Assembly: GCA_963836755.1 (NCBI GenBank)
Contig: CAWIKF010000001.1
Span: forward strand, 416,001-480,000
Source of the DNA: an uncultured Verrucomicrobiae bacterium
GTDB lineage: Bacteria > Verrucomicrobiota > Verrucomicrobiia > Chthoniobacterales > Chthoniobacteraceae
Length of the DNA stretch: 64,000 nucleotides
Direction of reading: 5' to 3'
Of the stretch, positions 11,967 to 18,536 are shown piece by piece. Position numbers and translations under genes: made by a program. Numbering within the stretch: the stretch's first letter is position 1; every line of letters starts with the position of its first letter. Below the pieces are notes generated by a model. It was not told the DNA's origin. It did not search any database and saw nothing but the letters and a program-made list of their open reading frames with translations.

Positions 11967-12377
11967 TCAGGCGTTGCGCGGCTCGGTTTTCGTGCGGCGC
12001 AATTCAAAAATGCGCACCAGCACAAACGCGATCAAGGCGATGATGAAAAAAACCAGCAGCACCTCGGCGATGCCTTGCAGCACGTCGATGATCGTCCGGT
12101 AAACTTCCAGAATCCAGCGGTCGCGATTCAACTCCACGATCTCCGCGCCCTTCACCACCGGCTTCGTGATGTATTTCTCGAGATCGTAAATGCGGACGCC
12201 GCTGGAGATGCCGACGACGTAGATCGCGAACATCAAATATTTACGCCATGCGGCAAAAATATCGTCGCCGATGATACGCTTCAGGATTTGATCAACCGGT
12301 TTTTTGAAAGCCGCGGCGACGACGACCGAGACGACCGTCGCGATGAGGAAAGTCACGAGCAGGAGCGTGAGGAACAT
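11967..12377 (-). CDS. small membrane protein (3 TM)
   Basis: Three hydrophobic segments; WRKYLMFAIYVVGISSGVRI. Confidence 0.85.
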   Translation of the reverse strand: MFLTLLLVTFLIATVVSVVVAAAFKKPVDQILKRIIGDDIFAAWRKYLMFAIYVVGISSGVRIYDLEKYITKPVVKGAEIVELNRDRWILEVYRTIIDVLQGIAEVLLVFFIIALIAFVLVRIFELRRTKTEPRNA

Positions 12378-12431: not shown

Positions 12432-12462
12432 AAAAAAAGCCCGATCATTTCTGATCGGGCTT
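12432..12462 (-). terminator. intrinsic terminator
   Basis: Minus strand reads AAGCCCGATCA-GAAA-TGATCGGGC-TTTTTTT. Confidence 0.9.
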
Positions 12463-12520
12463 GGCCAAGGAACGAGCGTTTAAGTTTTAGTAGTGTTTTA
12501 AGTGTCTTCCAGGCTCGCCT
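12432..12520 (-). ncRNA. candidate sigma54-dependent small RNA (~90 nt)
   Basis: Lies between a -24/-12 promoter and a strong terminator with no ORF. 5' stem GGCGAGC/GCUCGUU encloses an A/C-rich loop. Confidence 0.65.
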
Positions 12521-12529
12521 TCCTTATTT

Positions 12530-12546
12530 AGCAGCCGCCGTGCCAA
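12530..12546 (-). promoter_or_regulatory. sigma54 (RpoN) -24/-12 promoter
   Basis: TTGGCACG-GCGG-CTGCT versus consensus TGGCACG-N4-TTGCW, with exact GG-to-GC spacing. Confidence 0.75.
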
Positions 12547-12640
12547 GCCGCCGCACGTTTTTTCCCCGGGGAAATTTGAGTGTGCCCGCAGGGTGAAAAC
12601 ATTTGCGGACGAGACGTTGTGGGCTACTTTCGATGCCCTT

Positions 12641-13093
12641 ATGACTTTTCAGGAACGCATCGACAACGATTTGAAGGAGGCGATGAAGGCGAAAAACGCC
12701 GACAAACTCGCCGTCCTCCGCATGTTGAAAGCTGCGCTCAAGAACGCCGCGATCGAGAAAGGCGGCGCCTCCGCGCAGCTCGACGAGGCCGAGGCAGTGG
12801 CAATCGTGCGCAAGCAGGCGAAGCAGCGCCAGGATTCGATCGAAGGCTTTGAGAAAGGTCATCGGCCCGAACTAGCGGAAAAGGAAAAAGAAGAGCTCGC
12901 GTTTTTAAATGAATATCTGCCGCAGCCGCTCGATGCGGAAGCGCTCAGCCAGCTCGTGCGCGAATCGATTGCTGAGGCGGGCGCGACGTCGAAGGCGCAG
13001 ATGGGCGCGGTGATGAAAATCGCCAGCGCGAAGGCGGCCGGACGCGCTGATGGCCGCGCATTGAGCGCGGAAGTCCAGAAGCAGTTGTCTTGA
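12641..13093 (+). CDS. GatB/YqeY domain protein
   Basis: DLKEAMKAK...LRMLKAALKN, KQRQDSIEGF, YLPQPL and MGAVMK...GRADG motifs. Confidence 0.93.
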   Translation: MTFQERIDNDLKEAMKAKNADKLAVLRMLKAALKNAAIEKGGASAQLDEAEAVAIVRKQAKQRQDSIEGFEKGHRPELAEKEKEELAFLNEYLPQPLDAEALSQLVRESIAEAGATSKAQMGAVMKIASAKAAGRADGRALSAEVQKQLS

Positions 13094-15161: not shown

Positions 15162-16472
15162 ATGAATGTCGAAGTCGAAAATTTGCCCCATTGCATCACC
15201 ACTCTCCGCGTCGAGGTGGAGCCTGAAAAAGTAACCCAGACCTGGGATTCCATCGCGAAGGATTACATGCGCCACGCGAAGCTGCCGGGCTACCGGCCGG
15301 GGAAGGCGCCACGGCAGATCGTGGAGCGAAAATATGAGAAGCAGATTCGCGAGGAGCTGCAAAAGCAGTTGCTCTCCGAGAGCTGCCGCGAGGCGATCAA
15401 TGAGAAAAAGTTGCGCGTGCTCTCGCTGGCGGAGGTCGAGGATGTGGAGATCGGCGAGGATAAGACGCTCCGTTTCACCGCTACGCTGGTGACGGCGCCG
15501 GAGTTTGAGACGCCCGATTACAAGAATATCGAGATGACGACGTCGTCGGTGGAGGTGAGCGAGGAGGAGGTGGATGCGGCGCTGGAACGGCTGCGCGAGG
15601 ATTCGGCGGACTTTGTCGACATCTCGGATCGCGGCCTGGAAATGGAGGATTTCGCGGTGATCGATTACACGGGGACGATCGATGGGAAGCCAGTGCACGA
15701 GGTTTTTCCAAAGGCGGGGAAGCCGCTCTCGGGCAACAATGATTTTTGGATTCGGCTGACGGCTGAGGCGTTTTTCCCGGGATTCAGCGAGCAGTTGCTC
15801 GGCGCGAAAGTTAGCGACGTGCGGGAGTTTGAGATCGAGGTGCCGGCGGAGTTTGCGGTCGAGGAGATGCGCGGGCAGAAAATCCATTACGCGGTGACGG
15901 TGCGCGGGCTGAAGTCAAAGCAGTTGCCGGAGTTGAACGATGAATTTGCCGGGAAGATCGTGCGCGGGAAGACTGCGGCGGAGTTGCGCGACGTGGCGCG
16001 CGACGAGCTCCGGCGGCAGAAGGAAAAAGCGGCGGTGCGCGAGCGGAAAAATCAGATCATGCAGGCGCTCTTGAGCCGCGTGGAATGCGAGCTGCCGGAG
16101 AATCTGGTGCGCCAGGAAACCCAGCGCATCCTCGCTGACATCGTGCGCGAAAATCAGGCTCGCGGCATTGCCGAGGAGGTGATTCGCGAGAACGAAAAGG
16201 AGCTGGTTGGCTCAGCGGCTCAGAACGCGCGCGACCGCTTGAAGGGAACTTTTATTTTACTCCGAATCGCGGAGGCGGAAAAAATCGGCGTGACGCAGCA
16301 GGACTTTCAGCAGCGCGTGGCGATGATGGCCGCGAACTACAACGTCCCCTTTGAAAAAATGCTCAAGGAGCTGGAAAAGCGCGATGCGATCGGTCAGATC
16401 CGCGAGGAGATCCTCACGGGCAAGGTGCTTGATTTCCTCGAGTCGAATGTTAGCGTCCCAGCGGCTTCGTAG
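15162..16472 (+). CDS. tig: trigger factor
   Basis: PGYRPGKAP signature, FKBP domain, position upstream of clpPX. Confidence 0.95.
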   Translation: MNVEVENLPHCITTLRVEVEPEKVTQTWDSIAKDYMRHAKLPGYRPGKAPRQIVERKYEKQIREELQKQLLSESCREAINEKKLRVLSLAEVEDVEIGEDKTLRFTATLVTAPEFETPDYKNIEMTTSSVEVSEEEVDAALERLREDSADFVDISDRGLEMEDFAVIDYTGTIDGKPVHEVFPKAGKPLSGNNDFWIRLTAEAFFPGFSEQLLGAKVSDVREFEIEVPAEFAVEEMRGQKIHYAVTVRGLKSKQLPELNDEFAGKIVRGKTAAELRDVARDELRRQKEKAAVRERKNQIMQALLSRVECELPENLVRQETQRILADIVRENQARGIAEEVIRENEKELVGSAAQNARDRLKGTFILLRIAEAEKIGVTQQDFQQRVAMMAANYNVPFEKMLKELEKRDAIGQIREEILTGKVLDFLESNVSVPAAS

Positions 16473-16499
16473 ACACGGAGCGCAGCAGTTTTTTTACCC

Positions 16500-17180
16500 A
16501 TGCCAATTCAATCCAACACTCGCGAAACTCCGCACGATGTGCTCGTCCCGATGGTTATCGAGCAGACCGGGCGAGGGGAGCGCAGCTACGATATTTATTC
16601 GCGGTTGCTGAAGGATCGCATCATTTTTCTCGGCACTCCGATCGACGATCACATCGCGAATTTGGTCATCGCGCAGATGCTTTTTTTGCAAATGGAGGAT
16701 CCGAAAAAAGACATCCACATTTACATCAACTCGCCCGGCGGCTCAGTGACGGCGGGGCTGGCGATTTATGACACGATGCAGTTCGTGACATGCGACGTGA
16801 CGACCTATTGCCTCGGCATGGCGGCCAGCATGGGCGCGGTGCTGCTTTGCGCCGGCACAAAGGGCAAGAGATATGCTTTACCCAACTCCGACATCATGAT
16901 CCACCAAGTCTCGGGCGGCGCGCAAGGCACCGCCAGCGACGTGGAGCGGACTGTCGAATACATGTTTAAATTAAAAAAGCGCCTCATCCAGATCATGGCC
17001 GACCATACCGGCAAGGATTTCGAGACTGTGAAGAACGATTCCGATCGCGATTATTACATGAGCGCGGCGGAGGCGAGCGCCTACGGTCTGGTGGATCAAG
17101 TCGTGCAATCGCGCAAGGAATTGAAGGCCGAGTCGAAGCCCGAGCTGGCGGACAAGCCAGCGGATAAGTCTTCGGAGTGA
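16500..17180 (+). CDS. clpP: Clp protease proteolytic subunit
   Basis: [28 protein letters not shown] and MIHQ motifs. Confidence 0.97.
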
Positions 17181-17261
17181 AATCGGATGAAGTGCCGGAT
17201 GTTTTCTCAGCTTAAAAACCCCGCGAAACTTTCACGCCGTTCCGCGGCAATATTCTAAAAG

Positions 17262-18536
<1,275 letters not shown>

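What the first reader, a model, noticed from the sequence alone, without database searches (positions are those of the whole stretch)
12432..12546. Unannotated sigma54-dependent small RNA with repeated A/C-rich loop motifs
Seen on the minus strand: a near-consensus -24/-12 promoter TTGGCACG-GCGG-CTGCT (12546-12530) with predicted +1 near 12520. A 5' stem GGCGAGC/GCUCGUU closes an unstructured loop CUGGAAGACACUUAAAACACUACUAAAACUUAAAC, which has three ACU(U)AAA(A)C repeats and is very AT-rich for this genome. A 9-bp GAAA-loop terminator with U7 follows, and there is no ORF. Established: sigma54-driven sRNAs such as Qrr, CrcZ and GlmY act by base-pairing or by titrating proteins. Inference: a complete ~90-nt regulatory RNA gene I cannot assign to a known family. 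The repeats suggest a sponge for an RNA-binding protein or a multi-target seed.
Basis: partly seen in the sequence, partly recalled or inferred. Interest (0 to 1): 0.78.

Follow-up and report, generated by a model that had tools for sequence, protein, structure and literature searches.

The report
New sigma54-driven small RNA family
This is a predicted ~88-base non-coding RNA gene, conserved across Chthoniobacterales bacteria with a sigma54-type promoter, a hairpin holding an A/C-rich loop and a terminator, that likely acts as a decoy for an RNA-binding protein in bacteria whose genomes mostly show neither of the usual small-RNA partners, Hfq and CsrA.

Summary
The element is real and belongs to an undescribed RNA family of Chthoniobacterales (82 aligned copies; no Rfam match). 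Promoter, hairpin and terminator travel together. A promoter+terminator pattern recovered the unspecified core in 48 of 48 Verrucomicrobiota-titled loci. A core-only metagenome pattern gave 35 hits with both promoter and terminator, 44 with neither and 3 with one, of 82. Neighbours vary and downstream genes are mostly convergent, so it is not a leader.

What the family keeps is a 17-42 nt G-poor loop of variable sequence, with no common seed and no excess complementarity to this genome's start regions.

The genome shows RpoN and four activators, but no Hfq, CsrA, ProQ, RapZ or cold-shock domain. It shows three RRM proteins, KhpA and bS1, and scarce Shine-Dalgarno sites. The loop resembles, by composition only, the start regions of groEL, tuf and pilin.

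Best reading (0.5): a CrcZ-like protein decoy for an RRM protein or bS1. Transcription and partner are untested.

The parts
12530..12546 (-). sigma54 -24/-12 promoter box (GG at 12544-12543, GC at 12532-12531)
   Evidence: Sequence. Exact box in 80 of 82 aligned copies (most were selected by it). Found independently upstream of all 15 model hits of 44 bits or more (2 of 15 with a variant first base, read by eye) and 0 of 42 hits under 39 bits.
12524..12529 (-). A/T-rich stretch just after the -12 element, likely the melting region
   Evidence: Not part of the search pattern, yet T 73, A 64 and A 72 of 80 at three positions after the GC.
12432..12519 (-). predicted ~88-nt RNA (+1 at 12519-12520, inferred from sigma54 spacing)
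   Evidence: Inference from box position; model R2 70.4 bits and the only strong copy in the genome.
12507..12514 (-). 5' strands of outer stem P1 (12514-12512) and inner stem P2 GGAA (12510-12507)
   Evidence: Consensus folds and pair counts.
12473..12506 (-). 34-nt apical loop with a 28-nt G-free A/C/U core (12505-12478) holding the three repeats
   Evidence: Mean unpaired probability 0.83. Family loops are 17-42 nt with core A 43%, C 28%, U 25%, G 4.6%.
12464..12472 (-). 3' strands of P2 UUCC (12472-12469) and P1 GGC (12466-12464)
   Evidence: G-C pairs kept in 61 and 58 of 63 rows; the adjacent pair changes on both sides in 24 of 63.
12432..12460 (-). intrinsic terminator: 9-bp hairpin with GNRA loop and U7
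   Evidence: 99.6% of cells paired, 8 of 9 pairs with compensatory changes.
12641..13093 (+). divergent neighbour yqeY, not a conserved partner
   Evidence: Pfam YqeY. None of the yqeY loci from relatives showed the element beside it.
11967..12377 (-). downstream 136-aa hydrophobic ORF, not a conserved partner
   Evidence: No Pfam family; not among the recurring neighbours of 78 loci.

Best explanation
A predicted ~88-nt sigma54-promoter small RNA of a conserved Chthoniobacterales family that likely works as a protein decoy: its stem would hold open a G-poor A/C/U loop that likely imitates mRNA start regions and so would titrate a single-strand RNA-binding protein. Shown here: the promoter box, the two-part stem, the G-poor loop, the terminator, their joint conservation, paralogues with different loops, and no detected Hfq, CsrA, ProQ, RapZ or cold-shock domain in this genome. 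Inferred: transcription is switched on by one of four REC-AAA-HTH activators; the loop is read by composition and shape, not by base pairing; and releasing the protein changes translation of mRNAs with similar start regions. My split for the partner, by inference only: an RRM protein about 55%, ribosomal protein bS1 or the 30S subunit about 30%, KhpA/B about 15%.
For: (1) The loop keeps composition, openness and length range but not sequence: core G 4.6%, best shared 7-mer in 18 of 79; loop middle over 0.7 unpaired in 58 of 80 and P2 probability over 0.5 in 74 of 80. (2) No seed targets: the best loop duplex with this genome's start regions was weaker than in 15 of 15 shuffles, and seed counts in start regions and non-coding DNA sat at the shuffle median. 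(3) Shine-Dalgarno sites are scarce (AGGAG before 27 of 2051 genes against 22 in a control window), as reported for other Verrucomicrobia (PMC10783764, passages). A loop-trained score exceeded 4 in 1.8% of sense -25..-1 windows against 0.2% antisense and 0.1-0.5% elsewhere. The top 20 include groEL, EF-Tu, atpA, the Amuc_1098-family pilus secretin and a pilin-like gene. (4) AUG occurs in 2 of 79 loops against a shuffle mean of 17. (5) Paralogues occur with different loops: 4 of 16 carrier genomes have two copies, and there are tandem copies (L168; L115/L116). (6) RRM genes are in 150 of 150 genomes of the order, Hfq over cut-off in 1 of 150, CsrA in 1 of 16 carriers. (7) The same logic is established for CrcZ, an RpoN-promoter RNA that titrates Hfq with A-rich stretches like those at its targets' ribosome-binding sites (PMC4063720, passages).
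Against: There are no expression or binding data. The likeness to start regions is compositional only: among 162 G-poor start regions the real order scored lower than the shuffled order under the loop model (mean -0.83), so no shared motif is shown and the loop may simply be how unstructured RNA looks in a 58% GC genome. The RNA has one loop, whereas CrcZ has six A-rich stretches in 407 nt. The loop's 5' edge is moderately conserved (C 55, A 57, C 46 of 59), which could be part of a seed. RRM genes are universal in the order while the RNA was found in 16 of 150 genomes, so the profile does not single them out. In Bacteroides the RRM-bound FopS RNAs act by base pairing (PMC11697453, passages). 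No shared upstream activator site or IHF site was found (0 of 77). The AUG shuffle test is inflated by G sitting at the loop edges and by kinship.
Confidence: 0.5

Rival explanations
1. A trans-acting base-pairing sRNA: the loop edge (UCACUUA-like), or a strand freed from the stem, pairs with mRNAs, helped by an RRM or KhpA/B chaperone, as FopS does in Bacteroides.
For: Most bacterial sRNAs of this size work this way (established knowledge). The loop's 5' edge is partly conserved (CACU in 48 of 79). RRM and KhpA are present. FopS are multicopy RRM-bound base-pairing RNAs.
Against: No 7-mer is in more than 18 of 79 loops; there is no excess complementarity in start regions; a G-poor loop pairs weakly with A/C-rich start regions; paralogues differ in the loop. 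Only one genome and only -60..+30 windows were scanned.
Confidence: 0.25
2. An RNA sponge (AgvB- or SroC-like logic, recalled) whose C/A-rich loop traps a G/U-rich sRNA that normally silences A/C-rich start regions.
For: The loop mimics start-region composition. A sub-threshold AgvB match overlaps the element (16.8 bits against a gathering score of 56).
Against: Complement counts in non-coding DNA sat at the shuffle median and the longest match was 13 nt in a repeat-like region. Loop sequence drifts between paralogues.
Confidence: 0.08
3. A 5' leader or attenuator of the downstream gene.
For: In this window the next gene starts 55 nt after the U-tract on the same strand, and this copy has two folds of equal energy.
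Against: 22 of 26 Pfam-confirmed downstream neighbours are convergent, and neighbours differ by clade. No strand competes with the terminator in the consensus fold.
Confidence: 0.04
4. A chance meeting of an ordinary terminator with a promoter-like word; no functional RNA.
For: Similar terminator hairpins end many genes in the phylum (42 weak hits), and strict sigma54 boxes are only about twice the control count.
Against: Three searches that each left out a part recovered the missing part. Compensatory changes exceed all 500 shuffles and all slid controls on an alignment not fitted to the structure.
Confidence: 0.03

Closest known systems
CrcZ (Pseudomonas)
   Same: RpoN-dependent promoter switched on by a response-regulator activator; A-rich single-stranded stretches like those at ribosome-binding sites; decoy logic (PMC4063720, passages).
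   Different: CrcZ is 407 nt with six A-rich stretches and titrates Hfq. This RNA is ~88 nt with one A/C/U loop, has no Rfam match, and Hfq was not found in this genome or in 148 of 150 of the order.
FopS / RbpB (Bacteroides thetaiotaomicron)
   Same: Paralogous short RNAs with an open region and a terminator, in a lineage that lacks Hfq and CsrA and has RRM proteins (PMC11697453 and PMC13370968, passages).
   Different: FopS share a conserved seed in a 5' single strand and repress by pairing. Here the open region is an apical loop without a common seed, the promoter is sigma54-type, and there are 1-3 copies, not 14.
CsrB/RsmY/RsmZ-type sponges (recalled)
   Same: Hairpin loops presented to a protein; paralogues.
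   Different: GGA lies in the stem and occurs in only 3 of 79 loops; CsrA was found in 1 of 16 carriers.
GlmY and Qrr (recalled)
   Same: Short sigma54-promoter RNAs with intrinsic terminators.
   Different: RapZ and Hfq were not found; no Rfam match; no conserved seed.

Membership tests
Any Rfam 15 family | Covariance-model score at the gathering threshold | tested here: not met
   Best scores over the element were 18.1 bits or less. On 7 homologue loci the best were mmgR/suhB 27.5 against 41 and ncS025 28.8 against 46.
CrcZ/CrcY | RpoN-type promoter | tested here: met
   Box conserved; RpoN present. Function of the promoter not assayed.
CrcZ/CrcY | Hfq partner in the genome | tested here: not met
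   Not found in G000 (96% complete); over cut-off in 1 of 150 genomes, which is not a carrier.
CrcZ/CrcY | About 400 nt with several A-rich stretches | tested here: not met
   About 88 nt, one loop.
CrcZ/CrcY | Acts by titrating a protein | not testable with these tools
   Inferred only.
CsrB/Rsm sponges | Repeated GGA in hairpin loops | tested here: not met
   GGA in 3 of 79 loops.
CsrB/Rsm sponges | CsrA in the genome | tested here: not met
   Not found in G000; in 1 of 16 carriers.
GlmY | RapZ partner | tested here: not met
   PF03668 not found in G000.
Qrr and other Hfq- or ProQ-dependent base-pairing sRNAs | Conserved seed and chaperone | tested here: not met
   No common 7-mer; Hfq and ProQ not found.
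FopS | Conserved seed in a 5' single strand | tested here: not met
   The 5' end is paired in the consensus fold.
FopS | Bound by an RRM protein | not testable with these tools
   Three RRM genes are present; binding is untested.
5' leader / riboswitch | Fixed position upstream of same-strand, related genes | tested here: not met
   22 of 26 Pfam-confirmed downstream genes are convergent.
Toxin-antitoxin RNA | Conserved adjacent toxin ORF | tested here: inconclusive
   No universal neighbour among ORFs of 70 aa or more; shorter ORFs were not examined.

The most novel reading that the evidence does not exclude
The RNA is a sigma54-controlled decoy for the ribosome's own mRNA-capture site. In bacteria that start translation without Shine-Dalgarno pairing, an AUG-less 'super start region' held open by a stem binds bS1 or the 30S subunit and throttles or redirects translation of the strongest mRNAs. 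It scored 13.2 on the loop model against 8.7 for the best natural start region, that of groEL.
Probability: 0.15. Interest if true: 0.85.

Novelty: new variant of a known kind. Interest (0 to 1): 0.62.

Why it matters
Chthoniobacterales include very common soil bacteria (recalled), and my searches found no paper describing a regulatory RNA of this kind for them. A compact conserved RNA gives bait to find which protein runs post-transcriptional control where Hfq and CsrA are missing and Shine-Dalgarno sites are scarce. That makes testable what RRM proteins or bS1 recognise in such bacteria, and what sigma54 controls in this phylum. If the partner is the ribosome, it would be a decoy acting on translation initiation itself.

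Tried and rejected
Expression: no RNA holder was listed; this is no evidence either way, and no reads could be laid.

Synteny with yqeY: not kept. Two further yqeY regions gave no model hit, but I fetched only one side of them.

Linkage to an ABC-F gene (15 of 78 loci) or msrA (11 of 78): clade-local, in differing orientations, and weakly similar (32% in two loci) to the best G000 match; rejected as a functional partner.

Likeness of the 5' part to the 16S rRNA 3' end, seen by eye: the 16S end was not among 317 profile hits in the genome; rejected.

Pairing of the loop with the conserved leader of the RRM genes: G000 percentiles 0.53-0.58, inconsistent across 13 of 16 planned rows (the script stopped early); rejected.

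Shared activator or IHF sites: none found.

A loose promoter+5' pattern over 150 genomes matched about as often as its control and was uninformative. The viral scan gave 1 match, not a member. The phylum-wide scan found no hit above 39 bits outside the order, and the weak hits are ordinary terminators; that scan scored only 28 of about 1000-2000 candidates per genome, so this is 'not found', not 'absent'.

Loop-like start regions behind sigma54 boxes: 4 of 7 in the top decile (P = 0.004); post hoc, and two of the four are pilin paralogues, so kept as a lead only.

Look-ups in this scan's earlier findings returned nothing.

Full report
Observation. The promoter box (12546-12530), loop, three repeats, 9-bp GAAA hairpin and U7 are all on the minus strand as described. 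The region folds better than all 200 shuffles (z -3.94). No Rfam family reaches threshold. The genome (G000, 3.18 Mb, 58% GC, 96% complete) holds one strong copy. It encodes RpoN and four receiver-AAA-HTH activators.

It is a family. BLAST of relatives found homologues at unrelated loci. Three searches each left out a part and recovered it.

Model R1 scored 69 of 121 at 38 bits or more. Among the 80 loci with titles, 48 of 48 Verrucomicrobiota-titled loci carried the unspecified core, against 1 of 32 others (a short contig titled Acidobacteria).

(b) Model R2 has no promoter. Over 150 genomes of the order it found hits of 44 bits or more in 16 genomes, from three families. All 15 such loci examined had the box at the right distance: 13 by regex and 2 with a variant first base read by eye, and 8 of the 15 were not training sequences. 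None of 42 weaker hits had it; those are ordinary terminators.

(c) A core-only pattern in metagenomes gave 99 matches, 82 after dropping cut and duplicate rows: 35 had both promoter and terminator, 44 neither, 3 one.

No hit above 39 bits was found outside the order in a 150-genome phylum sample, but that scan is lossy.

Structure. The consensus is a long irregular hairpin (outer stem RAGCY/RGCUY, inner stem GGAA/UUCC) closing a large loop, then the terminator. On a 63-row MAFFT alignment not fitted to the structure (63 of the 82 copies), 93.6% of cells pair and 14 of 19 pairs change on both sides, above all 500 shuffles and all slid controls (the model-fitted alignment agrees). Most compensatory changes are in the terminator. 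In the 5' hairpin the clear one is the pair next to GG/CC (24 of 63). RNAalifold itself called only the inner stem on this alignment, and kinship inflates these counts.

Context. 22 of 26 Pfam-confirmed downstream neighbours are convergent. Neighbours are clade-local (ABC-F 15, msrA 11 of 78 loci) with none universal. Four of 16 carriers have two copies with different loops, and tandem copies exist. This is the pattern of a free-standing RNA gene.

The loop. 79 distinct loops (81 of 82 copies parsed) are 17-42 nt with core A 43%, C 28%, U 25%, G 4.6%. The commonest 4-mer is in 48, the commonest 7-mer in 18, two ACU[A/U]AA in 11, and AUG in 2 against 17 expected. The repeats are therefore this copy's version of a compositional feature. 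The loop's best duplex with G000 start regions (-60..+30, my own gene calls, about 2500 genes) was weaker than in 15 of 15 shuffles. A fairer test on the G-free core gave seed counts at the shuffle median in start regions and non-coding DNA.

Candidate partners. Not found in G000: Hfq, CsrA, cold-shock domain, RapZ, ProQ. Found: three RRM proteins, KhpA and bS1. Across 150 genomes: RRM 150, Hfq 1 over cut-off, CsrA 36 but only 1 of the 16 carriers.

Start regions. AGGAG precedes 27 of 2051 genes, in line with SD-scarce Verrucomicrobia (PMC10783764, passages). A model trained on the loops, with this copy left out, scores sense -25..-1 windows above 4 in 1.8% of genes against 0.2% antisense. groEL ranks first, and EF-Tu, atpA and pilus genes are in the top 20. 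Against my reading, the likeness is composition only: among 162 G-poor start regions the real order scored below the shuffled order.

Mechanism. Shown: anatomy, joint conservation, paralogy and the partner inventory. Inferred: activator-driven transcription, an open loop read without base pairing, and titration of an RRM protein (likeliest), bS1/30S or KhpA/B, changing translation of mRNAs with A/C-rich start regions. I give this 0.5, base pairing 0.25, RNA sponge 0.08, leader 0.04, chance 0.03, and leave about 0.1 for mechanisms not considered. That it is a functional sigma54 RNA gene I put above 0.9.

Comparison. It would work like CrcZ (PMC4063720, passages) but fails membership on length and Hfq. 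It shares a setting with FopS/RbpB (PMC11697453 and PMC13370968, passages) but lacks a common seed. CsrB, GlmY, Qrr and AgvB features are recalled.

Literature. Six searches pairing Verrucomicrobia, Chthoniobacterales, Udaeobacter or Chthoniobacter with sRNA, ncRNA, sigma54 or RpoN terms returned 1-3 papers each, none about such an RNA by their listings. A decoy/S1 search listed 13 papers, seen as listings only. Supplements of RNA-motif catalogues and subscription journals were not seen and could hold this motif.

Verdict. A real, apparently undescribed sigma54-promoter small RNA family; a new variant of a known kind; partner and expression untested; interest 0.62.

Noticed in passing
L197 and L198 (G000 RRM gene leaders, about 100 to 30 nt upstream of the start); L424-L440, L442, L443: Two RRM gene paralogues share a conserved leader motif across Chthoniobacterales genomes (19 of 20 loci fetched, by eye). 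No Rfam match on 7 loci. A candidate undescribed cis-regulatory RNA, perhaps autoregulatory or cold-responsive.
   Followed up: partly
L066, L075, L088, L108, L109, L131, L136, L143, L145, L156 and similar loci: Devosia-type loci share a different conserved element behind a sigma54-like box. Three tested gave sub-threshold matches to flg-Rhizobiales RNA (31.5-40.5 bits against 55).
   Followed up: partly
order-wide: The RNA and CsrA rarely co-occur: CsrA is in 36 of 150 genomes but in 1 of 16 carriers. Kin are not independent.
   Followed up: no
window 12561-12574: A perfect 14-bp palindrome lies just upstream of the -24 box, between it and yqeY. No shared upstream word was found among homologues.
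   Followed up: partly
G000:C1 near 29870 and G000:C2 near 713650: Two arrays of 20-bp tandem repeats with the same unit.
   Followed up: no
G000:C2:45946-46345 and C2:2075703-2076102: Two pilin-like paralogues sit behind strict sigma54 boxes and have loop-like start regions.
   Followed up: partly
window 15162-18536: A trigger factor, ClpP and ClpX gene cluster, named from the translations by recall.
   Followed up: no
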